This document shows positions 1 through 23,805 of a DNA stretch of 64,000 nucleotides, piece after piece (position 1 is the stretch's first letter; the number at the start of each line of letters is the position of its first letter). The translations under genes and the position numbers were made by a program. The stretch comes from a virus. A model generated the notes under the pieces. That model searched no databases and had not been told where the DNA came from. It saw nothing but the letters and a program-made list of their open reading frames with translations. Location: IMG/VR virus record IMGVR_UViG_3300027969_002881, positions 32,001-96,000 of that record, one strand, 5' to 3'.

Positions 1-5
1 TATAA

Positions 6-470
6 ATGATTTTAGCTAAAAGTATTATTAAAGATAAATTTTGGATTCTTGAAGAGAATGCCAAACGGGTTGGTATGATGAACTTTAAGGATGATAACTA
101 TACTATCAATCTTAAACGTAGAGATTTTGTTGTTCGTAATACTACTGAACTTAAAAATCTTGGCATCGAATTTGTTGTTCGTGATTTAACACAAGGCGGC
201 AATATTGAAGTAATGGGTTATCCTACTGATCAAGAAGAAGTCTTTAACATCAAAGAAATGGACGGATATCCTACATTTACTAAAAAATCCACAAGTAAAA
301 GTACTCATGTGGCAGGATGGTATGGATTGAAGTTCAAAAATGGGTGGGTTGCTAGCCTATGCCCTAGATTTACTACTATCAAAACCAATGTATTTGTGGG
401 TCCTTACAAGACCAAGATGGATCTTAAAGTAGTTCTAAGCCAACAAAAAGAAACTATATTAGAAGATTAA
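6..470 (+). CDS. hypothetical phage protein (154 aa)
   Basis: ORF track; no recognisable motif. Confidence 0.75.
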   Translation: MILAKSIIKDKFWILEENAKRVGMMNFKDDNYTINLKRRDFVVRNTTELKNLGIEFVVRDLTQGGNIEVMGYPTDQEEVFNIKEMDGYPTFTKKSTSKSTHVAGWYGLKFKNGWVASLCPRFTTIKTNVFVGPYKTKMDLKVVLSQQKETILED

Positions 471-481
471 GTTAGCATTTA

Positions 482-519
482 ATCTGTTTCTCTGATAAAT
501 AATAGTAGGAGAAACAGAT
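482..519 (+). promoter_or_regulatory. RBS-sequestering stem-loop with T4-type late promoter (GATAAATA, 494-501) in the loop
   Basis: ATCTGTTTCTC (482-492) is the exact reverse complement of GAGAAACAGAT (509-519), which overlaps SD AGGAG (507-511); ATG at 521. Confidence 0.75.
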
Positions 520-520
520 A

Positions 521-838
521 ATGGCTAGACCGAAACCTACTATACTTTTAACATATACAGATCCAACAAGTTACAAAAGCGAAGAGATTTTAGAAGCTGA
601 AGCCATCTATGCTGTTTTCTTTCAAGGTAAACCGTTTAATCTTAGAACACACTTGAACAGTTTACAAGACTATCCGGGTCCAAAATATAAAAAAGTAAGT
701 TTTAGCAATTCAGGTCATGCGTTTAATCTAATGGAAAAGATGAATAAACTTTTTAAATGTAATGATTTTACTGTAGTGGAACTTTTACAAGGCGCCGAGG
801 TCAATGAATATGACCTTATCAAAAGAGCAGATAAGTAA
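521..838 (+). CDS. hypothetical phage protein (105 aa, MARPKP...), probably late
   Basis: ORF with strong SD AGGAG. Confidence 0.85.
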   Translation: MARPKPTILLTYTDPTSYKSEEILEAEAIYAVFFQGKPFNLRTHLNSLQDYPGPKYKKVSFSNSGHAFNLMEKMNKLFKCNDFTVVELLQGAEVNEYDLIKRADK

Positions 839-1145
839 ACTGGTTTTTGGTGAGATACAAAAATCAGTTGATACGCCATTGACCTTTTTTAGGGTTTATA
901 AAAATAGCAAGGGAACAAGATTTACTGGCTTGGGTTTTGATCTAGCTAGTTTTTTATGGAAAACCTATACAGTAAAGCTTCCACAAGATTATAAAATTGC
1001 CAACAAAACTCTGCTAATGCTGGACAGCAGAATGGAATGGCCCTACTATCTTAGTAAGAAAAAACTTATATTATTCAGCGAAATGGATGCTTTTGAATTT
1101 ACTTTATACTCAGGTGATATAAATTTATGGGCGCACAAAGAATGA
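804..1145 (+). CDS. hypothetical protein (113 aa)
   Basis: ORF overlapping neighbours; ATGA coupling to next gene. Confidence 0.75.
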   Translation: MNMTLSKEQISKLVFGEIQKSVDTPLTFFRVYKNSKGTRFTGLGFDLASFLWKTYTVKLPQDYKIANKTLLMLDSRMEWPYYLSKKKLILFSEMDAFEFTLYSGDINLWAHKE

Positions 1146-2305
1146 ATGCCAATGGATATTATTCAGTCAATGGTATAGAATTTGACAACAAAATTACTGC
1201 ACTGATTCGTGCTTCAGAATTAAACACTGAAGTTAAATGGCATTACTTTGATAATGTATTTGAAACTGCGAAAAACAATAATTTATTAGTAGATACTAAC
1301 TTAGAAGAATTATACAAAATAAGAGCACAACAACTTAGAGACAGCTATGATTATCTTATTTTAAATTATAGCGGAGGCAGCGATAGTCATAATATATTAC
1401 ATGTGTTTTTAAAGAACAATATCAAATTAGATTGTATCTATATACAATGGCCCGAGCGGCTGATGGACAAAGGTCTGTTCAATGTTAACACCAACGACAA
1501 ATCTACATTTAACTTTCACAGTGAATGGGAACTAGTATTAAAGAAAGACCTAGAGTGGCTAGCACAATCACACCCAGAAATAAAGATAGAACTATTTGAT
1601 TGGCTGGACTGTGTCGACGAAAACTTTTATACTGATAAAATATTTGAACAGAATGTTAGTAACTTGCCCAGCATGGCAAGAAGTATCAAGCAAAATAATT
1701 ACAGTAAAACCGAAACAGAACTAGCTGGCAAGGGTAAACGAGTTGCCAGTATATTTGGTATAGACAAACCTAATATTGTAAAGCATCAAGGTAAGTGGCA
1801 TTACTTTTTCGCAGACACAGCATTCATGGCACAAGCGAATCCTGGAAATCCCCATGGGCTGGAATATTTTTATAATACTCCTGCATTTCCTGAATTAACA
1901 ACAATACAATGTAAGAAACTAGCCAAGTGGTATGATTCAAATCCCAGTCATTTGTATTTGGTTAAATCACGCACAGACAGAATCGCAGAAAATCCTGCTG
2001 TAGCAAATTTCACGCACAGGCAGAACATGGATGAGTACCATCAAATGGCAGAAATTGCCAAACTTGTGTGTTACCCTTACTGGGACTTTACTAGATTTCA
2101 AGCAGAAAAGCCGTTTAGTGTCTTGGATAACTTACAACTAGGTGTACGAGCCTGGGATAACATTTTACATGCTTTGCCAAAATTTAAAAGAGCACAACAA
2201 GCATGGGAATATCATTGGACCAGCTATTTAAATAATATAGACATTGCAAAGATGCGAAGCAAAGATACGGTACCCGTAATAAGATCAAAATATTATAAGT
2301 TATAA
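1142..2305 (+). CDS. adenine nucleotide alpha-hydrolase (PP-loop) family protein, paralog 1
   Basis: LILNYSGGSDS PP-loop (SGGxDS); start chosen at ATGA overlap 1142. Confidence 0.7.
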   Translation: MNANGYYSVNGIEFDNKITALIRASELNTEVKWHYFDNVFETAKNNNLLVDTNLEELYKIRAQQLRDSYDYLILNYSGGSDSHNILHVFLKNNIKLDCIYIQWPERLMDKGLFNVNTNDKSTFNFHSEWELVLKKDLEWLAQSHPEIKIELFDWLDCVDENFYTDKIFEQNVSNLPSMARSIKQNNYSKTETELAGKGKRVASIFGIDKPNIVKHQGKWHYFFADTAFMAQANPGNPHGLEYFYNTPAFPELTTIQCKKLAKWYDSNPSHLYLVKSRTDRIAENPAVANFTHRQNMDEYHQMAEIAKLVCYPYWDFTRFQAEKPFSVLDNLQLGVRAWDNILHALPKFKRAQQAWEYHWTSYLNNIDIAKMRSKDTVPVIRSKYYKL

Positions 2306-2306
2306 C

Positions 2307-3494
2307 ATGGAACTTTTTAATCCACATTCCAATGATTGGTTGAAAAATAAATTTTCAATTTATAATGATCTCCGTAGTCGCGATACCGCGTATTGGAGCG
2401 ATACCTACAACATGTATATTATAACCAGATATGACGATGTTGTATTTGCGTTACATAATCCTGAAATTTTTTCGTCAGCCTATGGTAATCTTATTGTAGA
2501 GGATTCTCGAAGGTTTAATACAACGCTGGGTGCCAGTGATAATCCCACACATGATTTTCTAAAGAATATTGTAAGAAACGCTTATAGTAAAGACAACATG
2601 GATAGGATTACCTCATGCTTCTCTTATCATGCACGTCGATTATTATCGGATAAAGATAATCTAAATCTGTCAGATGTAATATCAGAGTTAAGTGCATGGT
2701 GTGTTGCAGAAATAATAAATTTTCCCTATGACAAAAAAGAAGTAGTGGATTTAATTATTGATATACAAAAGAAATCTAGTTTAGCAACAAACACTGATAT
2801 CGATGATAGTTCATATAAAAAATTTAGGCACATTTTAAAGAAACTATGGGTTTCTAAGACAGAGCCACATGGGCCGGGAATTTATAATGAGTTTTATTAC
2901 AATGATTCCATGGACCTTGATCCCGATGAACAGCACCCTAGATCTTCGTTGTTCATAGGACCTATAATCTCAGGAGCAAGTTCACTGGCTGGTGGATTAC
3001 AGTTTCTTACTTTAGATTTGTGTAGAAGCGGTAAATTACATAATTTATTAAATGACAAGTCACTAATACATTCTGCGGTAAATGAATCTTTGAGGTACAA
3101 TGCAAGTACAGGTAGGTTTAGTAGAACCGTTAATTCAGAGGTAGAATTACATGGCGTCAAATTAATGGCTGGCGACCGAGTTGCATTATGCCTGGATTCT
3201 GCCAATAGGGATCCTAGTGCTTTTACAAATCCAGATGTTTTTGATTTAGGTCGCCAGGGATCTAAATCCCTAGCTTTTGGGCACGGTATGCATGCCTGTA
3301 TTGCATTATCAATATCTAAAAACATTATGTCAACTTGGCTGGAATTGTTGTTTGATATATTTGGCAATTACCGCATAACGACATTGGACTCCGAGCTAGA
3401 ATATCTAATGACAGCATCCGGAAACAACGATTTGTTAACTAACCTACACCTAGAAAAGACGCAGAATATCACGAATAGTAATTCCTCAGCATAA
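2307..3494 (+). CDS. cytochrome P450
   Basis: heme motif FGHGMHAC, K-helix ESLR, meander FTNPDVFDLGR, N-terminal TRYDDV...LHNPEIFSS; 395 aa. Confidence 0.9.
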   Translation: MELFNPHSNDWLKNKFSIYNDLRSRDTAYWSDTYNMYIITRYDDVVFALHNPEIFSSAYGNLIVEDSRRFNTTLGASDNPTHDFLKNIVRNAYSKDNMDRITSCFSYHARRLLSDKDNLNLSDVISELSAWCVAEIINFPYDKKEVVDLIIDIQKKSSLATNTDIDDSSYKKFRHILKKLWVSKTEPHGPGIYNEFYYNDSMDLDPDEQHPRSSLFIGPIISGASSLAGGLQFLTLDLCRSGKLHNLLNDKSLIHSAVNESLRYNASTGRFSRTVNSEVELHGVKLMAGDRVALCLDSANRDPSAFTNPDVFDLGRQGSKSLAFGHGMHACIALSISKNIMSTWLELLFDIFGNYRITTLDSELEYLMTASGNNDLLTNLHLEKTQNITNSNSSA

Positions 3495-3497
3495 ATA
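3490..3497 (+). promoter_or_regulatory. putative T4-type late promoter (CATAAATA)
   Basis: 7/8 match to TATAAATA, upstream of SD AAGGAG and ATG 3528. Confidence 0.5.
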
Positions 3498-3527
3498 TAT
3501 ATAGTAACTAACCCCTAAGGAGATTAT

Positions 3528-3845
3528 ATGTTTTTAGTAACTAGAACACAAGTCAGACCCAACACGTCTGTAGAATTTTTTGGTCAAGATAATTCTGCTA
3601 TAACGCCCGAAGCTATCGCCCATATGCGTGAGAATTATATCACTACCGGCAAACAAATTAATTCTGATCGAATTGTATCAGAAGATGGATTAACTTTGAC
3701 TGTCGCTACGATTTGGCAATCAGAGGAAGCATTTAACGACTATAGAAATGACCAATTCGTAGTAGACAATCTAATTAACGTTAGCAACGCTTATTGCCAA
3801 GCTAATGGTATTGCTTCTACATTAGTCGGCAAAGAACAATTATAA
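3528..3845 (+). CDS. small hypothetical protein (105 aa), possibly ABM-like alpha+beta barrel
   Basis: strong SD; TIWQSEEAF segment resembles ABM-type W.S.EAF pattern (weak). Confidence 0.7.
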   Translation: MFLVTRTQVRPNTSVEFFGQDNSAITPEAIAHMRENYITTGKQINSDRIVSEDGLTLTVATIWQSEEAFNDYRNDQFVVDNLINVSNAYCQANGIASTLVGKEQL

Positions 3846-3860
3846 AATAATATTCCCGCA

Positions 3861-4820
3861 TTGTTTTCTGTATTTGATCAGCATCATATTTTTGTTGTGT
3901 TCAATCCTGGAAGTGGCGGGAATTTCCTTGCCGGAATCATTAACAACTTACTTAATTCAAATTTAACAGACTTAGATATATCCTCGACTGGCAGCAGTCA
4001 TACTGTATTGCGTGACAAATCAACTGGCACAGATTATCTATCATTTGGCACATTAATGGAGGAACATGACTCATTTAAGTCTGAAGAAGATCGTGAGCTG
4101 TTCTATCTAGAAAATATCAAGAAAACATATACATCGGAAAATAATAAACCCGAAGTTATATGGACACATGATTTTACAAACATTCCTCTTTACCGTAAAT
4201 ATTTTAAAAATTCTAAGATATTGGTTATTAACAATACATCACATGATGAACAGTTGACTGCACTGTTTATGTTGGCTAAGAAAACTCTTTTAGACAAAAA
4301 TTGCCTGTTGCCTATGTCAAGAGCCACATGGGAAATTGTCATGGAGAGATGGTCGATACATTGTATGAAGCAATTATTGCTGTTCAAGAACAGTGATGAT
4401 GCTATCAAAATGGTAAACGATCGTTTCAATGCTGAGTACAACAATGACCTACACTATGCAACTATAAGAATGATACTGGGCTTTTATGGCATGTTACACT
4501 TAGTAGAAGAAGTTCCAGCACAAAGAAGTGTATATGAATATGTTATATATCCTGCTACAAAAACAACAGGAAAAAGATTAGATCATTATGTCGACGATGA
4601 GTGTGTAATATTACCATACAACTATCTTTCCACTGGTGACTATGAGTTATTAGTTGAAAAGATATCTGCAACATTAGAACGACCACTGAACAGTGATGAG
4701 CTGGGTTACATTAGATCGTCTTTTGATAGGTATAGGTCGTGTCAAGATCAACTATTATTATCAAACCCCAAGAGTTACTATAAAAATTTAAGAGCCGCTG
4801 TATTAAATAAAGTACAATGA
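3861..4820 (+). CDS. hypothetical protein with N-terminal P-loop-like motif (sulfotransferase-like fold?)
   Basis: beta strand followed by NPGSGGNFL; TTG start; ATGA coupling to next gene; function tentative. Confidence 0.55.
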   Translation: MFSVFDQHHIFVVFNPGSGGNFLAGIINNLLNSNLTDLDISSTGSSHTVLRDKSTGTDYLSFGTLMEEHDSFKSEEDRELFYLENIKKTYTSENNKPEVIWTHDFTNIPLYRKYFKNSKILVINNTSHDEQLTALFMLAKKTLLDKNCLLPMSRATWEIVMERWSIHCMKQLLLFKNSDDAIKMVNDRFNAEYNNDLHYATIRMILGFYGMLHLVEEVPAQRSVYEYVIYPATKTTGKRLDHYVDDECVILPYNYLSTGDYELLVEKISATLERPLNSDELGYIRSSFDRYRSCQDQLLLSNPKSYYKNLRAAVLNKVQ

Positions 4821-6055
4821 ACAAAACGGACCTAGGATATTACACCGTAAATGGTGTAAGTTTCAACACCAATAAAGTCGCGGCCATTTTAGAAGCACAA
4901 AGAGTAGGTGCCGATATAGAATGGCATTTCCATGATACAATCTTTAATTCTGTCGACTGGACTAAAGAACCTGAACCCTCACTGGACATGATGTACGAAG
5001 CCAGGGCGCGGCAAATCAGAGAAAAATATGATTATGTTATTGTATTTTGCAGCGGTGGTGCAGACAGTACGAATGTGATTAGAACATTTATGAATCATAA
5101 CATTCATGTTGACGAAGTTGTTGCAATGATTCCAGAATCTGGTCTAAACAACTATGATTCCAATGACAAAGATTTATCACCAACAAATCTGATGTCAGAA
5201 ACAAAATATGCACAATACCCAATTTTACATGAAGTATCTACACGTAGTCCAAGAACAAAAATTACGGTTATTGATATATTTAAAAATGTAGAGGCTGCAG
5301 AATCCGACTCGTGGATATTTGAAACTGAGGGTGATATGATCGATCTAGTAAGCCATAGTTATGGCAAATTAGATTCTGTGCCGCACTTAGTTGATATGGC
5401 GGAACGTGGTGTAAGTATTGCCGCTGTATGGGGTACAGATAAGCCGATTATTTCATTTATAGGTGATACTGTTGCTACTGTACTTGCAGATGGTCCCGCA
5501 TATCTGCCCAAATATCCGTTTAAAACAGCGTATCCAAATGTAGACAGAGTACTATTCTATTGGTCACATGATATGCCAGAATTAATGGTCAAACAGGCAC
5601 ATGTTGTTGCTAGAGAATTATTAAAGCCTGAAAATATAGCAGTTTATCAGGCTTGTATTGATATGACAAATTTCAGTAAAAGGCCACAGGTTGTAAATTC
5701 TGCAGATGATATTATTTCAAATATGCACAAGCCAAAATTTAATCCTGCAGGATACTATTCACCTAAGACAATTTTCCAACGTGGCATAGTACCATTTGTA
5801 TATCCAACAACCTGGGATAATAAAGTATTCCAAGTTAATAAATTTGATCTCACACAGACCTTCCTACCTGCGTTCGCAAGCTGGGTTTCAGAATTACATC
5901 TAGGGTCTAGGATAACTCAATTAATAGAAAGCGATTTCAAATCGTTCTATTCACAAATTTCACCAAAATACCTGAATCCAAATAAGTCAGGTTTTAGAAT
6001 GTGTGTTAAAATATTTCCTATTGGAAATAAATACAACTTTAAAAAGAAACTATGA
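4817..6055 (+). CDS. adenine nucleotide alpha-hydrolase (PP-loop) family protein, paralog 2
   Basis: VIVFCSGGADS; shares GYYxVNG, Y..RA.Q.R..YDY and G.DKP motifs with 1142..2305. Confidence 0.7.
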   Translation: MNKTDLGYYTVNGVSFNTNKVAAILEAQRVGADIEWHFHDTIFNSVDWTKEPEPSLDMMYEARARQIREKYDYVIVFCSGGADSTNVIRTFMNHNIHVDEVVAMIPESGLNNYDSNDKDLSPTNLMSETKYAQYPILHEVSTRSPRTKITVIDIFKNVEAAESDSWIFETEGDMIDLVSHSYGKLDSVPHLVDMAERGVSIAAVWGTDKPIISFIGDTVATVLADGPAYLPKYPFKTAYPNVDRVLFYWSHDMPELMVKQAHVVARELLKPENIAVYQACIDMTNFSKRPQVVNSADDIISNMHKPKFNPAGYYSPKTIFQRGIVPFVYPTTWDNKVFQVNKFDLTQTFLPAFASWVSELHLGSRITQLIESDFKSFYSQISPKYLNPNKSGFRMCVKIFPIGNKYNFKKKL

Positions 6056-6996
6056 AACAATTTAAAAAATTATTACTGTCATCTGTGCTGGCATTATCTA
6101 CACTGTTGTCTCATGCAGAACCCATCAAGTTAATAGTACCAGTGGCACCTGGCGGACTGGTAGACAATCTTGCCAGACTAGTTGCACCTGAACTAGCTAA
6201 AAAACTCAACACCACTATTGTAGTGGAAAATAAAGTAGGTGCCAGCGGATCTATTGGTACTGCATTCGTTGCAGGATCTGCTGCCAACGGTCAGACATTG
6301 GTAATAGGTAATAGCGGCACAATTAATGTGTACCCCATGTTGAATCCTGGCTTTGATGGATACAATTCAAAATCTTTTGTACCTGTATGTTTAATCGGTG
6401 GAGGCCCATTGGTATTAACTGCCAGTGGAGAAATACCTGCAACTAATTTAAAGGAATTACTGCAATACTTTAAAGAAAACCCAACTGCGGCAAGCTGGGC
6501 AAGTCCAGGAGTTGGAACACCACCGCACCTATTAGGCGAACAATTAAAATTTCAGTATAATATAAATTCCATGGTACATGTTCTTTACAAGGGCATGGCA
6601 CCAGCAGTGGCGGATGTTATAGGTAACAGAGTATCGTTGATGTTTGATCTATATGGTCCACAAATGGCGGGTCTAATTAATACGGGTAAATTAAAACCTA
6701 TCTTTGTAACAGACAGTAAACCTTTGGGAAATATCAGTGCCGCACCAGATGCATCTTTTCACGTAAGGGGCTGGCAAGGTTTATTTGTACCGGCAAGCAC
6801 TCCAGAATCAGTGTTAACAAAATTGCGGTCAGCTTGTGAAAGTGCCGTCAATGAATCTACAGTCAAGGACCAATTAGTTACACTAGGAACTCCGCCATTA
6901 AATATCAAGCCCAGTGATGCACAAAGCTACATTGACAATGATACTAAGAGATGGACTACCATTATTAATAGATTAGACCTCAAAGAAAAGAAATAA
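6052..6996 (+). CDS. Bug/TctC family tripartite tricarboxylate transporter substrate-binding protein
   Basis: signal peptide; PIKLIVPVAPGGLVDNLAR, VVENKVGASG, SPGVGTPPHL, HVLYKG motifs. Confidence 0.9.
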   Translation: MKQFKKLLLSSVLALSTLLSHAEPIKLIVPVAPGGLVDNLARLVAPELAKKLNTTIVVENKVGASGSIGTAFVAGSAANGQTLVIGNSGTINVYPMLNPGFDGYNSKSFVPVCLIGGGPLVLTASGEIPATNLKELLQYFKENPTAASWASPGVGTPPHLLGEQLKFQYNINSMVHVLYKGMAPAVADVIGNRVSLMFDLYGPQMAGLINTGKLKPIFVTDSKPLGNISAAPDASFHVRGWQGLFVPASTPESVLTKLRSACESAVNESTVKDQLVTLGTPPLNIKPSDAQSYIDNDTKRWTTIINRLDLKEKK

Positions 6997-7001
6997 ACTT
7001 T

Positions 7002-7928
7002 ATGAGCTTTGCATTTATTTTTCCAGGACACGGATCCGAAATGGCAGTAATGTTGGATTCATTGTCTTCAAGACAGGAAGTAAAGGATACTTTACAGGAA
7101 GCATCTGACATACTAGGGAGAGACTTCAATAAAATAATTGAAGAAGGATTACAAACATCCTTTTCCTTGCTACCAACAGCGGCGCCCGCCATGCTCACTG
7201 CTGGTGTTGCTGGATTTCGGGCATGGCAGGCATCCGGAGGACAACAACCTAGCATTGTTGCCGGACACAGTCATGGAGAATATTCTGCGTTAGTAGCATC
7301 TGGTGTTCTTTCTTTTAAAGATGCACTGGAAGCAGTTCAATATCGTGCAACACTCATGCAGGCCATCAAAGGCAGCATGGCTGCTGTAATAGGGCTCAGT
7401 GCTGTTAAGGTCTTAGAGTTATGCGCTAATATTAGAGATGAAACGGGAAAAGTTGTTGAAGCTATTAACTTTAACGCACCAGGACAAATATTAATTTCAG
7501 GCGACAAAGAGGCAGTAGAGTCAGCCATTATTGCCGCTGATGCCGCAGGGGCAAAAATAACTCGTAGACTGGGACTTGCTGTTCCTGCACATTCTTCCTT
7601 ATTAAGACCAGTTTCAACAAAGCTACACGAGTACTTTCAACAAATAGAGTTCCGCACTCCGTTGATACCTATTATTAATAATGTTGATGTTGCTGTACTA
7701 ACCAATCCAATAGATATCAAAGATGCAATGGCTAGACAAGTTTCAAGGCCTGTTCGCTGGCAGAAAATTATAGAATCAATGTCGTCTCAGGGAATTAAAC
7801 AAGTGGTTCAATGTGGGCCTGGTAATGTTCTACATGAGTTGACTATACGTATTGATAAAAACCTACACAGTATGGCTATTGTGGATGAATTAACTCTCAA
7901 CGAAGTTCTGCGAACTTTAAATACATGA
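7002..7928 (+). CDS. fabD: FabD-like malonyl-CoA:ACP transacylase (variant motifs)
   Basis: FIFPGHGSE (cf. FPGQGSQ), catalytic GHSHG, FNAPGQILISG, VPAHSS, PVRW, GPGNVL. Confidence 0.85.
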   Translation: MSFAFIFPGHGSEMAVMLDSLSSRQEVKDTLQEASDILGRDFNKIIEEGLQTSFSLLPTAAPAMLTAGVAGFRAWQASGGQQPSIVAGHSHGEYSALVASGVLSFKDALEAVQYRATLMQAIKGSMAAVIGLSAVKVLELCANIRDETGKVVEAINFNAPGQILISGDKEAVESAIIAADAAGAKITRRLGLAVPAHSSLLRPVSTKLHEYFQQIEFRTPLIPIINNVDVAVLTNPIDIKDAMARQVSRPVRWQKIIESMSSQGIKQVVQCGPGNVLHELTIRIDKNLHSMAIVDELTLNEVLRTLNT

Positions 7929-8647
7929 CCAAAGAAAAATTAATTGACCTCTTTACTACGACAGGCTATGACGTTTTTAAAAATATTGTAGATGTTAAAC
8001 TTATAGAATCAATTAATAGAAAAGTAGATCTATTGGTGCCGCATCGTGGTCATGCCATGGATCACAAATACTACCCTGCTGATAAAGTAGCGGAATGTAA
8101 TGATCTGGCAGTGTGGTGGAGTCAAGAACTAAGCGGGTGGCCAGAGGTTCAAGAGATTACTCGTCAACTTATTGATGTAATTGGAGTAATGTTCGACGAA
8201 CCTAGCTCGTACATTGCAGACATCATTACCAATGAACCAGGTAATACGCATATCAAACCTCACATAGACAGTCCTTACCGATTCCCCAAATGGTGGAATG
8301 AAGATGAATTACTGGGCGTACAATGTATATTGCCATTGTGTGAATTCACCAAAGAGAATGGCAGTACTGGAGTGCTACCAAATAGTCATAATACTCGCTG
8401 GGTAGTCAAAGATAGTTATGCCGGAAAGTACAATGAAGAATTTTTGGCGGGTGTGGACCAACCAAAAATGGCACCAGGTGACGCACTAATTTATCATCCA
8501 CGCACACTTCACAGCACAATGCCAAATAATACTGATGTTCCACGTAGAGCTTTGCTTATCCATATAACCAGCAAAGAAATGGCTCGCCTGTTAAAATTGG
8601 AAGATACAATTTGGCAAGAAGAATCAAAAAAGATGTCATCTGTGTAA
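7925..8647 (+). CDS. phytanoyl-CoA dioxygenase (PhyH) family Fe(II)/2OG oxygenase
   Basis: HID facial triad start, ENGSTGVLPNSH, PGDALIYHPRTLHSTMPN...RRAL. Confidence 0.85.
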   Translation: MTKEKLIDLFTTTGYDVFKNIVDVKLIESINRKVDLLVPHRGHAMDHKYYPADKVAECNDLAVWWSQELSGWPEVQEITRQLIDVIGVMFDEPSSYIADIITNEPGNTHIKPHIDSPYRFPKWWNEDELLGVQCILPLCEFTKENGSTGVLPNSHNTRWVVKDSYAGKYNEEFLAGVDQPKMAPGDALIYHPRTLHSTMPNNTDVPRRALLIHITSKEMARLLKLEDTIWQEESKKMSSV

Positions 8648-8727
8648 ACGAAATACCGAGCTGCCGCGTTATATATATGTAGGGACAAAAATGTCACTAT
8701 AGTTCATTAATCAAAAGGAAACTTAAA

Positions 8728-9024
8728 ATGAAAAATCTTATCGCTACACTAATCGTTGCAGTTGCCGCAACATCTGCTTTTGCTCAAGCACCTGCTAAGA
8801 CAGAAGAAATTAAGAAGCCTGCTGCCGCTACAGCAGCCGCTCCTGCACCTGCTACACCAAAGGAAATGCCTAAGGTTGATAAGCCAAAGACAAAAGCTGA
8901 AAAAGAAGCTGAGGCAAAGGCAGCTAAACCAGCAGACACTAAAAGTGCTACACCTGCACCAGCACCTGCTGTCAAAGCAGACGAAAAGGCTCCTGCTAAG
9001 CCTGCCACAGCACCAACTAAGTAA
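8728..9024 (+). CDS. secreted Ala/Pro/Lys-rich low-complexity protein
   Basis: SD AAAGGA; signal peptide MKNLIATLIVAVAATSAFA|Q; PA/KA repeats. Confidence 0.85.
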   Translation: MKNLIATLIVAVAATSAFAQAPAKTEEIKKPAAATAAAPAPATPKEMPKVDKPKTKAEKEAEAKAAKPADTKSATPAPAPAVKADEKAPAKPATAPTK

Positions 9025-9208
9025 TTTAGAATTAAACGATGAAGACTATGATGGTGGTTCCGACGACATAGTTCTTCATTGTGGCTACGTTAGACCTAGA
9101 CTTATTACTGTTGATTTAGACAATGATGATGTCAGTGATTATGTAGCACAGAGATTGGCAATAGCCCGTGAAAAGGCTATGATGGCATATAAAGAAAAAT
9201 GGGCTTAA
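8756..9208 (+). CDS. overlapping +1-frame ORF; C-terminal ~60 aa probably coding, true start uncertain
   Basis: frame stays open across the upstream gene and fills 9025-9208 up to a terminator; no in-frame ATG until the last few codons. Confidence 0.45.
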   Translation: MQLPQHLLLLKHLLRQKKLRSLLPLQQPLLHLLHQRKCLRLISQRQKLKKKLRQRQLNQQTLKVLHLHQHLLSKQTKRLLLSLPQHQLSNLELNDEDYDGGSDDIVLHCGYVRPRLITVDLDNDDVSDYVAQRLAIAREKAMMAYKEKWA

Positions 9209-9224
9209 TTGCCCATTTTCTTTT
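9196..9224 (+). terminator. intrinsic terminator
   Basis: AAAATGGGC-TTAATT-GCCCATTTT followed by CTTTT. Confidence 0.7.
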
Positions 9225-9225
9225 A

Positions 9226-9254
9226 TTGACACAAATTGATTTTGGTGCTATAAT
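9226..9254 (+). promoter_or_regulatory. sigma70-type early promoter P1
   Basis: TTGACA-17 bp-TATAAT. Confidence 0.85.
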
Positions 9255-9259
9255 ATAGC

Positions 9260-9502
9260 ATGACTAAAGAAAAAGTAAACGATATTATTCAATGGTCCGG
9301 TGCGTTTTTTATCACAGCCGGACACGTTCTTAATACACTTGGTAGCTCATATCACCAGGATCTGTGGAACATTGCGGCATTTGCAGTTGGAACAACCTTG
9401 TTCCTAACATGGACAATCCGTGTTGTAAATAAGCCACAGATGGCTGTGAATATAGCCGCACTGGCTACGATGGCTGTGGGCTTGTATAAAGCCTTTAATT
9501 GA
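9260..9502 (+). CDS. small membrane protein (80 aa, ~3 TM), probably leaderless
   Basis: three hydrophobic segments; ATG 5 nt after -10 box, no SD. Confidence 0.75.
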   Translation: MTKEKVNDIIQWSGAFFITAGHVLNTLGSSYHQDLWNIAAFAVGTTLFLTWTIRVVNKPQMAVNIAALATMAVGLYKAFN

Positions 9503-9527
9503 CACAAATTGGTTTTGGCGTTATAAT
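9499..9527 (+). promoter_or_regulatory. sigma70-type early promoter P2
   Basis: TTGACA-17 bp-TATAAT. Confidence 0.85.
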
Positions 9528-9557
9528 ACATATATAGTAACAAAACAGGAGCAAAAG

Positions 9558-9839
9558 ATGTCCTACGTAATCGTTTCCAAAGGCACAGGCCTTATTGTAA
9601 CAGATGGCCCTAATTACACTAAGGCTTACAAAACTTTTAGTGCCGCTAAAGCCACTCGCACTCGTTTGTGCAACAAAGCAGGCTGGAGCGAAAGCGACTT
9701 GAGCATTGTTGCTCGTGAAACTTATCGTGCGCCAGGTAGGATCACTGTTAAGAACTTGATGACTGGCAAATTGGTAGAAATCGATGCTGATACTCCTTGG
9801 GCTTGCCGAGTTGACAGCGAATCTTTTTGGTGTAATTGA
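9558..9839 (+). CDS. hypothetical phage protein (93 aa)
   Basis: SD CAGGAG; own promoter. Confidence 0.85.
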   Translation: MSYVIVSKGTGLIVTDGPNYTKAYKTFSAAKATRTRLCNKAGWSESDLSIVARETYRAPGRITVKNLMTGKLVEIDADTPWACRVDSESFWCN

Positions 9840-9864
9840 CACAAATTGGCAATTTTGCTACAAT
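9836..9864 (+). promoter_or_regulatory. sigma70-type early promoter P3
   Basis: TTGACA-17 bp-TACAAT. Confidence 0.8.
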
Positions 9865-9891
9865 ACATATATTAACAAAACAGGAGTCAAA

Positions 9892-10101
9892 ATGACAAAA
9901 TTTTCCATAGTTAAACCCGAACTGATTAAACAAGCCCTTCGTAAGAAAGCAAACGGTCAAAAGCATATTGCTCGTACAAAAATTGTCGAGGTCGCAGAAC
10001 ATATTACAGACGAAGTGGTTACATTTCTGACAGTAGACAATATGAACGAACTTGCTATGGCAGTAGGCGGCACTTATAAAGACGGCAAAATCATATTTTA
10101 A
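9892..10101 (+). CDS. hypothetical protein (69 aa)
   Basis: start reassigned to ATG 9892 after SD CAGGAG, downstream of P3. Confidence 0.8.
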   Translation: MTKFSIVKPELIKQALRKKANGQKHIARTKIVEVAEHITDEVVTFLTVDNMNELAMAVGGTYKDGKIIF

Positions 10102-10105
10102 TATT

Positions 10106-10366
10106 ATGATTAATATCAACGGATTAACTCATGAACAGGTCGAGATGCTGGATATCATCTGGGGTTTCGACACCAAAGAAGAATACAACGATTGGATGGA
10201 AAACTTGGATATTGAAGAATACAACATGTGCCGTGGCCTGATGGAATTGCTGACTTTGGCTATTCTTGATGAATCTCTTGAGAGCCGAGGCCGGCCGGCA
10301 GATCGCTATAAAGATGCAAACAAAGTTATCAATCAAGTTAAATCAAAGTTGACACAAAATAAATAA
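10106..10366 (+). CDS. hypothetical acidic protein (86 aa)
   Basis: ORF track, co-oriented, 4-nt gap. Confidence 0.75.
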   Translation: MININGLTHEQVEMLDIIWGFDTKEEYNDWMENLDIEEYNMCRGLMELLTLAILDESLESRGRPADRYKDANKVINQVKSKLTQNK

Positions 10367-10377
10367 TCCATTATAAT
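10349..10377 (+). promoter_or_regulatory. sigma70-type early promoter P4
   Basis: TTGACA-17 bp-TATAAT. Confidence 0.8.
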
Positions 10378-10397
10378 ATGGATTGTTAGGAAGAATT

Positions 10398-10562
10398 ATG
10401 AAACGAGAAATTATCACTGCTAAAGTTCCAAAACAAAAGCGACGTGCTGACTTCTTGTTCCATGATGGGCAGTTCAAGCCAAAGTGTGTTCAAAGCAAAG
10501 TTTTATACAATCGTAAAAAATTGGTAAAACTTAACATTGACACAAATGGTAAAGACTGCTAA
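10398..10562 (+). CDS. 54-aa basic peptide, ArfA-like (not in ORF track)
   Basis: hand-translated MKREIITAKVPKQKRRADFLFHDGQFKPKCVQSKVLYNRKKLVKLNIDTNGKDC; SD TAGGAAG; downstream of P4. Confidence 0.65.
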   Translation: MKREIITAKVPKQKRRADFLFHDGQFKPKCVQSKVLYNRKKLVKLNIDTNGKDC

Positions 10563-10565
10563 AAT
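10537..10565 (+). promoter_or_regulatory. sigma70-type early promoter P5
   Basis: TTGACA-17 bp-TAAAAT. Confidence 0.75.
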
Positions 10566-10631
10566 AACGGTATGATAAGCAATAGTGCATGTCATACATT
10601 TTACACACACAGAGAAAAGGTAAATTTCAAA

Positions 10632-10889
10632 ATGGCTACTTCTAAACTTTTTACAGTTATCGGCGTTTCAACACTTGCAGGCAAAACTAAAGTTCGCTTT
10701 GCTAACGACCTCGCCACTCGTATTAAAAACTTGGTCAAGAACGGACACACTAATATTGAGTTGTTCGAACTGCCAACAGCAATGACCAAAGAGGCTGGTC
10801 TTGCTTATGCTAAGGCAAACTCCTTGTTTGCTATTCCTGCAGACACAGACACTTCTGCAGAAGATGTTATTGCCGCAGTTAGTAAGTAA
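10632..10889 (+). CDS. hypothetical phage protein (85 aa, MATSKLF...)
   Basis: SD-like AAAAGG before ATG 10632; alternative start 10572. Confidence 0.8.
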   Translation: MATSKLFTVIGVSTLAGKTKVRFANDLATRIKNLVKNGHTNIELFELPTAMTKEAGLAYAKANSLFAIPADTDTSAEDVIAAVSK

Positions 10890-10902
10890 TAGCATATTAT
10901 AT

Positions 10903-10928
10903 GCAGGGGTGTTCTGCCCCTGCTTTTT
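10903..10928 (+). terminator. intrinsic terminator
   Basis: GCAGGGG-TGTTCTG-CCCCTGC followed by TTTTT. Confidence 0.8.
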
Positions 10929-10947
10929 AATTTTATAAGGAAGTGTG

Positions 10948-11175
10948 ATGCTGACTAAACAAGAGATAGAATATATACAGGCTGCACCTGCTCCTGGCAT
11001 AGTATTCCAAACATTAAATGATATATTACAGTGGGAAGGTTGGAACAGTCCAACTCATAAAGGCTGGGTCTGCTGGGCTGTAGAACAAAGCCTAATTGCC
11101 AAAGGCTTACTTGTTAAAGTAAGTGGCGGCCGTGGTCGCGGTCGTAAAAATCATTTCATGTTAAAAGCCTTTTAA
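10948..11175 (+). CDS. hypothetical protein (~75 aa)
   Basis: SD AAGGAAG; GTG 10945 or ATG 10948. Confidence 0.7.
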   Translation: MLTKQEIEYIQAAPAPGIVFQTLNDILQWEGWNSPTHKGWVCWAVEQSLIAKGLLVKVSGGRGRGRKNHFMLKAF

Positions 11176-11187
11176 AAAGGAAGCGTG

Positions 11188-11406
11188 ATGAGCAGACTCC
11201 AATTACATGGTAGACAATTTATGGTGTTCGATCCCAGTGACAAACAACACCGCAAGTGGTTCGCCGATTTTAACAAGAACAGATCATGGTCTCGCTGTCC
11301 AGTTCGTTTTGTGGTCAATGACGACCATGGTGATTTGGTCACCCAAATCCAAAGAGAGTTAATCCAACATTATGTTGACAAAGAATTTAAATCCATTAAA
11401 GAATAA
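11188..11406 (+). CDS. hypothetical protein (~72 aa)
   Basis: SD AAGGAAG; same AAGGAAG(T/C)GTGATG start context as previous gene. Confidence 0.75.
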   Translation: MSRLQLHGRQFMVFDPSDKQHRKWFADFNKNRSWSRCPVRFVVNDDHGDLVTQIQRELIQHYVDKEFKSIKE

Positions 11407-11407
11407 T

Positions 11408-11518
11408 ATGACACAACCTGTTACACACAAAGTCGGCGACAAAGTTCGCAGTTCAACTGGCGGCACGATCACTTACACAACGACAGGTCTAATCCATACA
11501 ATGTCGAAGAATCGTTAA
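11408..11518 (+). CDS. 36-aa peptide (not in ORF track)
   Basis: hand-translated MTQPVTHKVGDKVRSSTGGTITYTTTGLIHTMSKNR; fills gap between previous stop and P6. Confidence 0.5.
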   Translation: MTQPVTHKVGDKVRSSTGGTITYTTTGLIHTMSKNR

Positions 11519-11547
11519 TTGACACAAATTAAGATTTTAGATATAAT
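11519..11547 (+). promoter_or_regulatory. sigma70-type early promoter P6
   Basis: TTGACA-17 bp-TATAAT. Confidence 0.85.
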
Positions 11548-11577
11548 AGACACATAGTTTAACAAAAGGAGTTAGTA

Positions 11578-12687: not shown

Positions 12688-13054
12688 AGAATCTGAGAAC
12701 AAACGAAAGGCCTTGGAAGTGTTAAACTTCTGGGTGCCTGACGAAGAGAAGAAAGACTTAATTCCTTTTTTGGATGGTACAGTAGACTTAGTATATGGTG
12801 GATTGGATTATGCCAGAAGTGTGATAGGTACTGACAAAATTACAAGAAGCATGATCATTGACTACTTTGAACATGCTCAAACTACTTGGCCAAAGACAAC
12901 TATGCCTATAGGTGTTTCTAGGGCGTTAGTAAAAAGTTGGTGTAAAGAACTAGGCATTAAACCTTTACACTATTATTCTACAATGCATAATAGATATATT
13001 TGGTTTAAAGAAGAGCAGGACTCTTTTGCTTTCAAATTAAAATTTGGTTTGTAA
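12674..13054 (+). CDS. hypothetical protein (126 aa)
   Basis: ORF between ATPase and P7. Confidence 0.7.
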   Translation: MYPIKESENKRKALEVLNFWVPDEEKKDLIPFLDGTVDLVYGGLDYARSVIGTDKITRSMIIDYFEHAQTTWPKTTMPIGVSRALVKSWCKELGIKPLHYYSTMHNRYIWFKEEQDSFAFKLKFGL

Positions 13055-13083
13055 TTGACACAAATATATTTTGCATATATAAT
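13055..13083 (+). promoter_or_regulatory. sigma70-type early promoter P7
   Basis: TTGACA-17 bp-TATAAT. Confidence 0.85.
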
Positions 13084-13106
13084 ATATACATTAGTAAGGA
13101 ATACAT

Positions 13107-23031: not shown

Positions 23032-23034
23032 ATG

Positions 23035-23778: not shown

Positions 23779-23805
23779 TGTGGATCCTTAAATATTAAAT
23801 GCTCT

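What the first reader, a model, noticed from the sequence alone, without database searches (positions are those of the whole stretch)
1142..8647. Phage-borne biosynthetic-cluster-like operon: AANH x2, P450, P-loop protein, Bug binding protein, FabD, PhyH
Eight co-oriented genes, several joined by ATGA overlaps, encode ATP-dependent adenylation/ligation (two SGGxDS enzymes), two oxidases (P450, PhyH), an acyl-CoA transferase and a periplasmic carboxylate-binding protein. This is the make-up of a small-molecule or tailoring pathway, not a standard phage module. No ACP, ketosynthase or ferredoxin gene lies in the window, so it would borrow host partners or act on a non-ACP acceptor. The product (metabolite, modified lipid, tRNA/DNA base or virion protein adduct) is unknown.
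Basis: partly seen in the sequence, partly recalled or inferred. Interest (0 to 1): 0.85.

Follow-up and report, generated by a model that had tools for sequence, protein, structure and literature searches.

The report
Jumbo-phage carboxylate capture and tailoring cassette
A giant freshwater phage carries a conserved eight-gene operon, built around two virus-only ATP-dependent ligases and a secreted carboxylate-binding protein, that probably modifies an acid-bearing molecule whose identity is still unknown.

Summary
Window 1127-8647 (+) has eight co-oriented genes with three ATGA overlaps and no internal strong promoter or terminator. It lies on a 127.9-kb IMG/VR virus record, about 35% of a roughly 360-kb Rak2-like jumbo myophage.

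Three genes needed re-reading:
- The two SGGxDS proteins are paralogues of a large, virus-only family with an asparagine-synthetase-B / beta-lactam-synthetase-type synthetase fold. They lack a glutaminase domain.
- The 'P-loop protein' has a sulfotransferase fold with a non-canonical cofactor loop.
- The 105-aa ORF is ABM-like and occurs elsewhere fused to that sulfotransferase-fold protein.

The P450 (nearest solved relative CYP203A), the secreted TctC/Bug protein, the FabD-like enzyme and the PhyH enzyme all keep their catalytic motifs.

The core (ligases, P450, ABM, ST-fold, TctC) recurs in other jumbo-phage contigs, even with the gene order shuffled. FabD is a lineage-specific addition. 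In 67 dereplicated loci, 24 of 34 TctC genes directly abut a ligase gene.

No characterised pathway matches. My best reading, at moderate confidence, is uptake of a carboxylate followed by oxidative tailoring and ATP-dependent amide formation. The main rival is amide hypermodification of a carboxylated DNA base, 7-carboxy-7-deazaguanine.

Earlier notes on this genome covered the neighbouring deazaguanine and radical-SAM/glycan clusters, not this cassette on other DNA.

The parts
1127..2305 (+). PP-loop ligase paralogue 1 (392 aa; SGGSDS at nt 1370-1387; alternative ATG at 1142)
   Evidence: 29% identical to ORF5, E 4e-31. No Pfam, NCBIfam or PHROG hit. Belongs to the same virus-only family.
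2307..3494 (+). Cytochrome P450 (395 aa; FGHGMHAC heme-Cys motif at aa 324-331, ESLR at aa 260-263)
   Evidence: Pfam p450 1.8e-13. Best solved relative is 8FBC, P450-T2 of the CYP203A subfamily, E 8e-39. BioI, CypX, CYP199A4 and CYP124 follow. Motifs located.
3528..3845 (+). ABM/Dabb-like small protein (105 aa)
   Evidence: Atlas structure match to an ABM-domain cluster, TM 0.73. Present in 16 related loci. Occurs as an N-terminal fusion to the ST-fold protein in P0235: 44% identity over 75 aa, E 2e-14.
3861..4820 (+). Sulfotransferase-fold protein (319 aa; loop PGSGGNF at aa 16-22, WTHDF at aa 101-105)
   Evidence: AF2 pLDDT 92.2. Foldseek and VIA-align hits: SULT1E1 Z 10.6 (200 aa, rmsd 4.5), TPST, CurM ST, Teg12. 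Closed family of 158 representatives among 1.84e9 proteins. No Pfam hit.
4817..6055 (+). PP-loop ligase paralogue 2 (412 aa; SGGADS at nt 5051-5068)
   Evidence: AF2 pLDDT 91.7. VIA-align: AsnB Z 10.8 (282 aa, rmsd 4.9), human ASNS 10.4-10.6, beta-lactam synthetase 8.7-9.7, TsnB9 8.7, CarA 8.0-8.2, against about 7 for NadE, GuaA and LarE. 469 clusters in the protein search. 371 IMG/VR stretches.
6052..6996 (+). Secreted TctC/Bug-type carboxylate-binding protein (314 aa; signal peptide aa 1-22, nt 6052-6117; PVAPGGLVDNLAR at aa 30-42)
   Evidence: Pfam TctC 6.9e-41. PDB hits: BugD 1.4e-41, BugE, Bug27, terephthalate-binding protein. All 37 distinct phage homologues have signal peptides.
7002..7928 (+). 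FabD-like malonyl-CoA:ACP transacylase (308 aa; GHSHG at aa 88-92, YRATLMQ at aa 114-120, PAHSSL at aa 195-200)
   Evidence: TIGR00128 258.5 bits against a cut-off of 260.9. Found only in loci with 94% relatives (L007-L009). GC3 is the same as its neighbours.
7925..8647 (+). PhyH-type Fe(II)/2-oxoglutarate dioxygenase (240 aa; HID at aa 113-115, His196, RRALL at aa 207-211)
   Evidence: Pfam PhyH 1.1e-14. Weak PDB matches to FtmOx1, SptF and PrhA. Present in L012, L015 and L018.
9196..9219 (.). Bidirectional terminator-like hairpin, the first good one downstream of the cassette
   Evidence: Perfect sigma-70 promoters start only at 9226 and beyond.

Best explanation
The block is a conserved accessory operon of uncultivated freshwater jumbo myophages. 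I read it as working on one carboxylic-acid substrate.

Proposed steps (inferred unless marked shown):
1. The phage-made TctC/Bug protein is exported to the host periplasm. Its signal peptide is shown. It captures a carboxylate and hands it to the host's own TctAB permease.
2. In the cytoplasm, the two paralogous ligases adenylate a carboxyl group with ATP and pass it to ammonia or an amine, giving an amide or lactam. Their AsnB / beta-lactam-synthetase-type PP-loop fold is shown.
3. The CYP203-like P450 (using host ferredoxin), the ABM-like protein and the PhyH dioxygenase oxidise the scaffold.
4. The sulfotransferase-fold protein, which works with the ABM protein, adds or removes a group using a nucleotide cofactor. 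That cofactor may not be PAPS.
5. FabD is a lineage-specific add-on. It would load malonate onto host ACP or another acceptor.

The enzymes' nearest relatives point to a small, possibly aromatic or amino-acid-like, acid. The product is unknown.
For: One transcription unit:
- Eight co-oriented genes, three ATGA overlaps, and no strong promoter or terminator inside.

Synteny:
- The same set is present at 94% identity (L007).
- At 60% identity it recurs without FabD (L010/L011), and again at 48% (L012).
- It appears in shuffled order in a 360-kb relative (L015).
- In 67 dereplicated loci, 24 of 34 TctC genes and 10 of 15 ST-fold genes are immediate neighbours of a PP-loop gene.
- 12 of 23 close ORF5 orthologues are followed directly by TctC.

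Ligase fold:
- The five best matches among 48,161 PDB representatives are all AsnB-class enzymes that adenylate small-molecule carboxylates: AsnB, ASNS, beta-LS, TsnB9 and CarA, at Z 10.8-8.0.

TctC:
- Signal peptides are present in all 37 distinct phage homologues.
- The best solved relatives are the carboxylate binders BugD, BugE, Bug27 and the terephthalate-binding protein.

Related loci add an outer-membrane porin, a further TctC, an Amidohydro_2 (aromatic-acid decarboxylase family), a Rieske ring-hydroxylase alpha-like protein, cupins and DctP. This fits uptake plus transformation of organic acids.

P450:
- The nearest solved relative is CYP203A, a subfamily that binds substituted aromatic acids and phenols (PMC7780096).

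ABM and ST:
- Natural ABM-ST fusions exist.

Catalytic motifs are intact in the P450, PhyH, FabD and the PP-loops. GC3 is uniform, so the genes are long resident in the phage.
Against: - No substrate has been identified.
- Co-location of genes does not prove that they form one pathway.
- PP-loop amide synthetases are unusual partners for organic-acid uptake; CoA ligases are the norm there.
- The ST-fold protein lacks the Lys and Thr-Thr of the PAPS 5'-phosphosulfate loop, so its chemistry is open.
- P450, ABM and ST co-occur with the ligase in only 11-19 of 85 loci, and PhyH in 6. The cassette is therefore modular rather than fixed.
- The operon sits in the replication and nucleotide-metabolism arm, next to RNase H, FolE, MetK and ThyX. 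A phage AsnB homologue is already known to act on DNA (PMC12783734). Both points favour the DNA rival.
- The host is unknown, so host TctAB, ACP and ferredoxin are assumed.
Confidence: 0.4

Rival explanations
1. DNA (or nucleotide-pool) hypermodification. The PP-loop ligases would adenylate the carboxyl group of 7-carboxy-7-deazaguanine (CDG, free or already in DNA) and attach ammonia or an amine or amino acid. The oxygenases and the ST-fold protein would tailor the adduct further. TctC would import the amine or amino-acid donor.
For: - The contig carries FolE.
- No canonical QueC is present in the contig.
- Two near-complete relatives (100% and 97% complete) have FolE and QueD but no QueC above the cut-off.
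- DpdA inserts dCDG into DNA when QueC is missing (PMC10516641).
- The phage AsnB homologue CmoY ligates glycine to a carboxyl handle on DNA (PMC12783734).
- The cassette lies in the replication arm, next to RNase H, MetK and ThyX.
- A third, QueC-like PP-loop gene sits inside the upstream operon.
Against: - The tightest gene partner of the ligase is a secreted periplasmic binding protein. Related loci add a porin.
- ORF1 and ORF5 give no QueC or Asn_synthase Pfam signal at E<=1.
- No CmoA or C5-methyltransferase is present in this contig or in its relatives.
- Two 72-79% complete PP-loop-bearing genomes lack FolE, and the one also tested (72% complete) lacks QueD.
- The co-occurrence of FolE with the ligase family is confounded by shared ancestry of these jumbo phages.
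- The shorter, QueC-like PP-loop family is the more obvious stand-in for QueC.
Confidence: 0.22
2. Glycan tailoring. The ligases would amidate uronic or nonulosonic acid carboxylates. The ST-fold protein and the oxygenases would decorate sugars made by the phage's 45-kb radical-SAM and sugar cluster, for a virion or host-surface glycan.
For: - The contig encodes NDP-sugar epimerases/dehydratases, an RmlC fusion, a carbamoyltransferase, ThDP enzymes and at least 16 radical SAM genes. It also has a UDP-glucose-dehydrogenase-like gene.
- In 14 related loci, PP-loop genes directly follow homologues of these sugar-cluster genes.
- AsnB-like and PP-loop sugar amidotransferases are known; Legionella 8WEX appears in the fold list at Z 5.6.
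Against: - The cassette is on the opposite strand, about 9 kb from the glycan block. Early-type promoters and replication genes lie between them.
- The solved sugar amidotransferase scores far below the AsnB class.
- P450 and secreted TctC are not usual in glycan pathways.
Confidence: 0.13
3. The block is a collection of independent auxiliary genes with no shared substrate, for example a nutrient-scavenging binding protein plus unrelated oxygenases. They would be packed together only because this site downstream of RNase H is a hot spot for accessory genes.
For: - The same site downstream of RNase H holds variable cargo in relatives.
- Membership is modular: FabD in 3, PhyH in 6 and P450 in 11 of 85 loci.
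Against: - Translational coupling through ATGA overlaps.
- The gene set is retained after gene-order shuffling in L015.
- TctC and ST-fold genes are strongly adjacent to the ligase across diverged phages.
- ABM-ST fusion proteins exist.
Confidence: 0.15

Closest known systems
Asparagine synthetase B class synthetase domains (AsnB, beta-lactam synthetase, carbapenam synthetase CarA, TsnB9)
   Same: - SGGxDS PP-loop.
- The overall synthetase-domain fold aligns over about 280 residues at Z 10.8-8.0.
- The expected chemistry is adenylation of a carboxylate followed by attack of a nitrogen nucleophile.
   Different: - No Asn_synthase Pfam signal.
- No N-terminal glutaminase domain.
- About 10% sequence identity.
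- The family is known only from viruses.
- Often 2-4 paralogues per locus.
- No fused longer forms found.
CmoY, the phage asparagine-synthetase homologue that ligates glycine to 5-carboxymethylcytosine in DNA (PMC12783734)
   Same: Phage-encoded, AsnB-type, ATP-dependent amide ligase. It lies near nucleotide-modification genes in the genome.
   Different: - CmoY is recognisable as an asparagine synthetase by sequence, and it sits beside CmoA and CmoX. Neither of those is present here or in relatives.
- ORF5 has no tblastn match in 50,697 phage records.
PAPS-dependent sulfotransferases (cytosolic SULTs, TPST, CurM ST, Teg12)
   Same: Fold match over about 200 residues at Z 9-10.6. A His follows strand 3 (WTHDF), at the place where SULTs carry their catalytic His.
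   Different: - The loop is PGSGGNF rather than PKSGTTW: the Lys and Thr-Thr are replaced by invariant Gly, Gly and Asn.
- No sulfotransferase Pfam hit.
- A profile search stays within a closed family of 158 members.
Bug/TctC periplasmic receptors of tripartite tricarboxylate transporters (BugD, BugE, Bug27, TphC)
   Same: Full-length Pfam match, signal peptide and PxxxGGxxDxxxR carboxylate-clamp motif.
   Different: - Encoded by a phage with no tctA or tctB nearby, so it would have to use host permeases.
- Almost unknown in isolated phages: one weak hit in 50,697 records.
CYP203A P450s (P450-T2, PDB 8FBC; CYP203A1)
   Same: Best solved sequence relative, E 8e-39 over residues 4-357. Heme-Cys and ExxR motifs are present.
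   Different: - Far more distant than members of the CYP203A subfamily are from each other (E 8e-39; percent identity not computed).
- The I-helix region reads GASSLAGG, with no obvious acid-alcohol pair.
- No redox partner is encoded in the contig.

Membership tests
Asparagine synthetase B class (Asn_synthase, PF00733) | PP-loop SGGxDS ATP pyrophosphatase motif | tested here: met
   SGGSDS in ORF1 and SGGADS in ORF5. Invariant across 31 homologues.
Asparagine synthetase B class (Asn_synthase, PF00733) | Sequence match to the family profile | tested here: not met
   No PF00733 match in the whole contig at E<=1. No Pfam or NCBIfam hit.
Asparagine synthetase B class (Asn_synthase, PF00733) | N-terminal Ntn glutaminase domain | tested here: not met
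   The PP-loop starts at aa 79-82. Only a roughly 50-aa N-terminal beta-unit precedes the helix that leads to it. No longer fused forms were found.
Asparagine synthetase B class (Asn_synthase, PF00733) | Synthetase-domain fold | tested here: met
   AsnB Z 10.8 (282 aa, rmsd 4.9). The top five of 48,161 chains are all of this class.
QueC (PF06508) | Profile match and C-terminal Zn-Cys cluster | tested here: not met
   No match to ORF1 or ORF5 at E<=1. B. subtilis QueC gives only Z 5.5.
CmoA/CmoX/CmoY DNA carboxymethyl-amide system | Co-occurrence with Cx-SAM synthase CmoA and C5-carboxymethyltransferase CmoX | tested here: not met
   No PF00145 or TIGR00740 match in this contig or in four relatives, two of them near-complete.
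Cytochrome P450 | Heme-thiolate motif FxxGxxxC, ExxR, and profile match above the cut-off | tested here: met
   FGHGMHAC at aa 324-331 and ESLR at aa 260-263. PF00067 50.5 bits against 22.8.
PAPS sulfotransferase | Fold | tested here: met
   SULT1E1 Z 10.6. TPST1 Foldseek probability 1.0.
PAPS sulfotransferase | 5'-phosphosulfate-binding loop PKxGTT with catalytic Lys | tested here: not met
   The loop is PGSGGNF; G17, G20 and N21 are invariant in 28 homologues. The correspondence was assigned from position after strand 1, not from a residue-level superposition.
PAPS sulfotransferase | 3'-phosphate-binding Arg/Ser motif | tested here: inconclusive
   No invariant Arg or Ser follows strand 4; E130 and K141 are invariant instead. 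No residue-level structural alignment was available.
TctC/Bug solute receptor | Full-length profile match and export signal | tested here: met
   PF03401 141 bits, profile positions 2-274 of 274. Signal peptide MKQFKKLLLSSVLALSTLLSHA.
TctC/Bug solute receptor | Cognate TctA/TctB membrane components | not testable with these tools
   The host is unknown. None was seen among the annotated genes of the contig.
FabD malonyl-CoA:ACP transacylase (TIGR00128) | Equivalog score above the cut-off | tested here: inconclusive
   258.5 bits against a cut-off of 260.9.
FabD malonyl-CoA:ACP transacylase (TIGR00128) | GHSxG Ser nucleophile, malonyl-binding Arg, catalytic His | tested here: met
   GHSHG, YRATLMQ and PAHSSL. 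The Gln of the FPGQGSQ motif is His here. Equivalence to the E. coli residues is from my own knowledge.
FabD malonyl-CoA:ACP transacylase (TIGR00128) | ACP acceptor available | tested here: not met
   No PP-binding domain in the contig at E<=1. The contig is only about 35% of the genome, and the host's ACP could serve.
PhyH Fe(II)/2OG dioxygenase | Profile match and HxD...H triad with 2OG-binding Arg | tested here: met
   PF05721 55.6 bits against 22. HID at aa 113-115, His196, Arg207/208.
ABM (antibiotic biosynthesis monooxygenase) domain | Ferredoxin-like alpha+beta fold and profile match | tested here: inconclusive
   Atlas model TM 0.73 to an ABM cluster, but no Pfam hit.

The most novel reading that the evidence does not exclude
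The virus-only AsnB-fold ligases would be the writers of a previously unknown family of amide-linked DNA hypermodifications, built on 7-carboxy-7-deazaguanine. Different paralogues would attach different amines. Those amines would be scavenged from outside the cell by phage-encoded periplasmic binding proteins (and porins), and the adducts would then be oxidised or conjugated by the P450, ABM, ST-fold and PhyH enzymes.
Probability: 0.12. Interest if true: 0.9.

Novelty: new variant of a known kind. Interest (0 to 1): 0.62.

Why it matters
- Auxiliary genes in phages are usually single host-derived enzymes. This is a translationally coupled, multi-enzyme module that has been kept together across diverged jumbo phages.
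- Its two central proteins, the PP-loop ligase and the sulfotransferase-fold protein, belong to families that so far have no cellular or characterised members.
- The ligase family is large: 469 sequence clusters at 90% identity, 371 IMG/VR occurrences, and up to four paralogues per locus. Assigning it a function would annotate hundreds of genes in uncultivated giant phages.
- Phage-encoded, exported TctC receptors, with porins in relatives, imply that these phages rewire what the infected cell imports.
- If the target turns out to be a carboxylated DNA base, this would extend the new 'carboxyl handle plus amide ligase' principle of phage DNA hypermodification to deazapurines.

Tried and rejected
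- Sequence searches of ORF1, ORF4 and ORF5 against PDB chains gave only chance hits.
- PHROGs gave nothing for any of the eight genes.
- PADLOC gave no defence-family hit.
- Megablast of 1-12000 and tblastn of ORF5 against 50,697 phage records found no match.
- FabD and TctC hits in that collection are weak and look like host-derived fragments.
- A scan of genome contigs with FabD found no close cellular relative, so I could not infer a host.
- A search for longer, fused forms of ORF5 found none; this is weak evidence.
- Complex prediction of the ST-fold protein with the ABM protein returned no verdict.
- The look-up of sequencing runs listed no RNA holder. The only full holder is a freshwater metagenome that may be the source sample.
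- Solved QueC (Z 5.5) and the Legionella sugar amidotransferase (Z 5.6) were much weaker fold matches than the AsnB class.
- The T4 late-promoter word TATAAATA is not associated with the cassette: 2 matches in the window against 11 expected, none near it.
- Literature searches for phage TctC, for phage P450 plus sulfotransferase, and for jumbo-phage asparagine synthetase found no description of this cassette.
- A carbapenem- or clavam-like beta-lactam pathway was considered, because it also combines an AsnB-class synthetase with a 2OG oxygenase. I did not pursue it: no crotonase (CarB) or ThDP (CEAS) partner lies in the cassette, and I did not search for them specifically.

Full report
CONTEXT

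The window is bases 32001-96000 of a single 127,886-bp contig. That contig is an IMG/VR virus record, linear, with a CheckV completeness estimate of about 35%. The contig encodes:
- a T4-type DNA polymerase (phrog_262, E 1.8e-189), a baseplate hub and virion proteins;
- the polymerase is 47-49% identical to those of the Rak2-like jumbo phages Phosso and Atu_ph07, and about 42% to 121Q-like phages.

A 360,465-bp contig carries a 78% identical copy of one cassette gene, so a genome of about 360 kb is plausible. The one run that holds nearly all of the stretch is a freshwater metagenome, which may be the source sample.

THE OBSERVATION

Eight + strand ORFs fill 1127-8647. Three junctions are ATGA overlaps (4817, 6052, 7925) and the other gaps are 1-33 nt. 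No strong sigma-70-like promoter or good terminator lies inside. Four perfect 12/12 promoters and a bidirectional hairpin start only at 9196-9226. Third-position GC is uniform across the genes (0.28-0.33), including TctC and FabD, so none looks like a recent import.

WHAT EACH GENE IS

ORF1 (1127-2305) and ORF5 (4817-6055):
- They are paralogues (29% identity, E 4e-31) carrying SGGSDS and SGGADS.
- They have no Pfam, NCBIfam or PHROG hit, and no Asn_synthase or QueC signal at E<=1.
- An AlphaFold model of ORF5, built on 31 homologues, has pLDDT 91.7.
- Foldseek, a VIA-align re-scoring of its hits, and an independent VIA-align scan of 48,161 PDB representatives all put the asparagine-synthetase-B class first: E. 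coli AsnB Z 10.8 (282 aligned residues, rmsd 4.9), human ASNS 10.4-10.6, beta-lactam synthetase 8.7-9.7, TsnB9 8.7, carbapenam synthetase 8.0-8.2.
- Generic PP-loop enzymes (NadE, GuaA, LarE, TilS) sit near Z 7, and QueC at 5.5.
- There is no glutaminase domain, and no longer fused form was found.
- The family is large and, as far as the data go, viral only: 469 clusters at E<=1e-3, all unnamed; 28 Uroviricota-only Atlas clusters; 371 IMG/VR stretches; no hit in 50,697 isolate-phage records.

ORF2 (2307-3494):
- It is a P450 with intact heme-Cys and ExxR motifs.
- Its best solved relative by a wide margin is P450-T2 (8FBC, CYP203A subfamily, E 8e-39).
- CYP203A enzymes bind substituted aromatic acids and phenols (PMC7780096).

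ORF3 (3528-3845):
- It is a 105-aa protein whose Atlas model matches ABM-domain clusters (TM 0.73).

- Its model has pLDDT 92.2 and a sulfotransferase fold: SULT1E1 Z 10.6, TPST, CurM ST, Teg12.
- The loop after strand 1 is an invariant PGSGGNF rather than PKSGTTW, so the catalytic Lys and the phosphate-binding Thr-Thr are missing.
- A profile search of 1.84 billion proteins stays inside a closed family of 158 representatives.
- Several members of that family are about 430 aa long, with an N-terminal copy of the ORF3 domain (P0235: 44% identity over 75 aa, E 2e-14). This natural fusion ties ORF3 and ORF4 together functionally.

ORF6 (6052-6996):
- It is a full-length TctC/Bug receptor (6.9e-41) with a Sec signal peptide and the carboxylate-clamp motif.
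- Its closest solved relatives are BugD, BugE, Bug27 and the terephthalate-binding protein.

ORF7 (7002-7928):
- It is FabD-like: 258.5 bits against the 260.9 cut-off of TIGR00128. The Ser, Arg and His are present.

ORF8 (7925-8647):
- It is a PhyH-type dioxygenase with an intact HxD...H triad.

ACP, ketosynthase, Fer2 and Fer4_15 families are absent from the contig.

IS THE COMBINATION REAL?

- A 94% relative has the identical gene order (L007).
- A 60% relative has PP1, a 101-aa ORF, P450, ABM, ST, PP2 and TctC, with no FabD (L010/L011).
- A 48% relative on a 156-kb contig has the same set plus PhyH (L012).
- The 360-kb relative keeps the set in a different order: PP2-TctC-P450-ABM-ST-PP1-x-PhyH (L015).
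- Across 85 loci that hold the ligase family, blastp with the window's own proteins finds TctC in 25, ST-fold in 19, ABM in 17, P450 in 11, PhyH in 6 and FabD in 3. The FabD loci are all the near-identical relatives.
- Clustering all neighbouring genes widens the TctC count to 37 loci. It also adds a second, shorter QueC-like PP-loop family (28 loci), FA-desaturase-like proteins (24), DctP (18), radical SAM enzymes (17 and 15), GNAT-like proteins (16) and cupins (10).
- After dereplication to 67 loci, 24 of 34 TctC genes and 10 of 15 ST-fold genes are immediate neighbours of a ligase gene.
- 12 of 23 close ORF5 orthologues are followed directly by TctC, and 6 are preceded by the ST-fold gene.
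- All 37 distinct phage TctC sequences have signal peptides. All 12 DctP homologues lack one.
- Related loci also carry a Gram-negative porin, a further divergent TctC, an Amidohydro_2 protein (the family of non-oxidative aromatic-acid decarboxylases), a Rieske ring-hydroxylase alpha-like protein and a nitronate-monooxygenase-like protein.

The conserved core is therefore ST-fold, ligase and secreted TctC, together with the ABM and P450 genes and a second ligase. FabD and PhyH are peripheral.

MECHANISM

All five best structural relatives of the ligase adenylate the carboxyl group of a small molecule and then form a C-N bond. The gene most tightly linked to the ligase encodes an exported receptor for carboxylates. 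Relatives add a porin and aromatic-acid-type enzymes. The P450's nearest solved relative belongs to a subfamily that binds aromatic acids and phenols.

The simplest reading is a capture-and-tailor route:
1. periplasmic binding of an organic acid;
2. entry through the host TctAB permease;
3. oxidation by the P450, ABM and PhyH enzymes;
4. ATP-dependent amidation or lactam formation by the two ligases;
5. a group transfer by the ST-fold/ABM pair.

Only the folds, motifs, signal peptide and synteny are shown. Every step of the pathway is inferred. I give this reading 0.4.

RIVALS

DNA hypermodification is the serious alternative (0.22).
- For: the contig has FolE, MetK and a UDP-glucose-dehydrogenase-like gene just upstream.
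- For: there is no canonical QueC in the contig. Two near-complete relatives have FolE and QueD but no QueC.
- For: DpdA inserts 7-carboxy-7-deazaguanine into DNA when QueC is absent (PMC10516641). A phage asparagine-synthetase homologue, CmoY, ligates glycine to a carboxyl handle on DNA (PMC12783734).
- Against: the ligase is linked to a secreted protein. CmoA and a C5-methyltransferase are absent.
- Against: two 72-79% complete ligase-bearing genomes lack FolE. The FolE association follows phage lineage.
- Against: the shorter QueC-like PP-loop gene, which sits inside the upstream operon (L002:6859-7788), is the more natural QueC substitute.

Glycan amidation is possible (0.13) because of the large sugar and radical-SAM cluster and because ligase genes follow sugar genes in 14 loci. 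However, the cassette is on the other strand, in the replication arm.

A loose collection of unrelated accessory genes (0.15) is made unlikely by the translational coupling, by retention of the set after shuffling, and by the ABM-ST fusions.

COMPARISON AND NOVELTY

The cassette matches no characterised pathway that I could find, and no defence family. Literature searches found no description of it.

It is a new variant of a known kind, a phage auxiliary or tailoring gene cluster. It is built from known superfamilies, but its centre is two families with no characterised member. The ligases fail two defining tests for asparagine synthetase membership (no profile match, no glutaminase domain), so I describe them as AsnB-fold and do not call them asparagine synthetases. 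The ST-fold protein fails the PAPS-loop test, so 'sulfotransferase' describes its fold only.

VERDICT

Interest is 0.62.

Noticed in passing
L002:6450-7788 (contig 22450-23788, about 8-9.5 kb upstream of the window): A third PP-loop protein (309 aa, SGGSDS) belongs to a separate virus family with a weak QueC-like signal, found in 27-28 related loci. It is preceded by a 147-aa His-box membrane protein of fatty-acid-hydroxylase type. Both lie inside the FolE and sugar-nucleotide operon. This is a candidate non-canonical QueC.
   Followed up: partly
window 17750-62441, minus strand: At least 16 radical SAM genes, several with the SPASM domain N-terminal to the SAM cluster. They are interleaved with a nitroreductase, an Asp/Arg hydroxylase, a carbamoyltransferase, a split ThDP enzyme, three NDP-sugar SDRs and an FkbM-RmlC fusion. 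MetK lies upstream at L002:13373-14473.
   Followed up: partly
window 9226-11547: Four perfect 12/12 sigma-70 consensus promoters (at 9226, 9499, 10349 and 11519) precede a run of small ORFs. This looks like an early-gene region directly after the cassette.
   Followed up: no
L051:16224-17105, L051:14091-14996, L026:14321-15394, L028:18268-19110, L028:15875-16843: Related jumbo-phage loci encode, beside the PP-loop genes, a Gram-negative porin, an extra divergent TctC, an Amidohydro_2 decarboxylase-like protein, a Rieske ring-hydroxylase alpha-like protein and a nitronate-monooxygenase-like protein.
   Followed up: partly
L025-L028, L050, L057, L060, L062, L065, L071, L075, L082 (DctP genes): All 12 distinct phage DctP (TRAP solute-binding) homologues lack a signal peptide. 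That is unusual for this periplasmic family and suggests a cytoplasmic role.
   Followed up: no
window 11578-14327: A MoxR-type AAA ATPase followed by a DUF2201 metallopeptidase/VWA-like protein. The pair is conserved in several relatives.
   Followed up: no
whole window: The T4 late-promoter word TATAAATA is depleted: 2 matches against 11 expected from shuffles.
   Followed up: no
IMG/VR relatives G013-G015 (contigs of L027, L021 and L048): CheckV completeness of 9-17% for contigs of 50-89 kb implies that some phages carrying this ligase family have genomes of 350-600 kb.
   Followed up: no
L003:10370-18904, minus strand: A 2,844-aa ORF, followed by ORFs of 1,155 aa and more than 968 aa. They are probably giant fibre or structural proteins next to the baseplate genes.
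   Followed up: no
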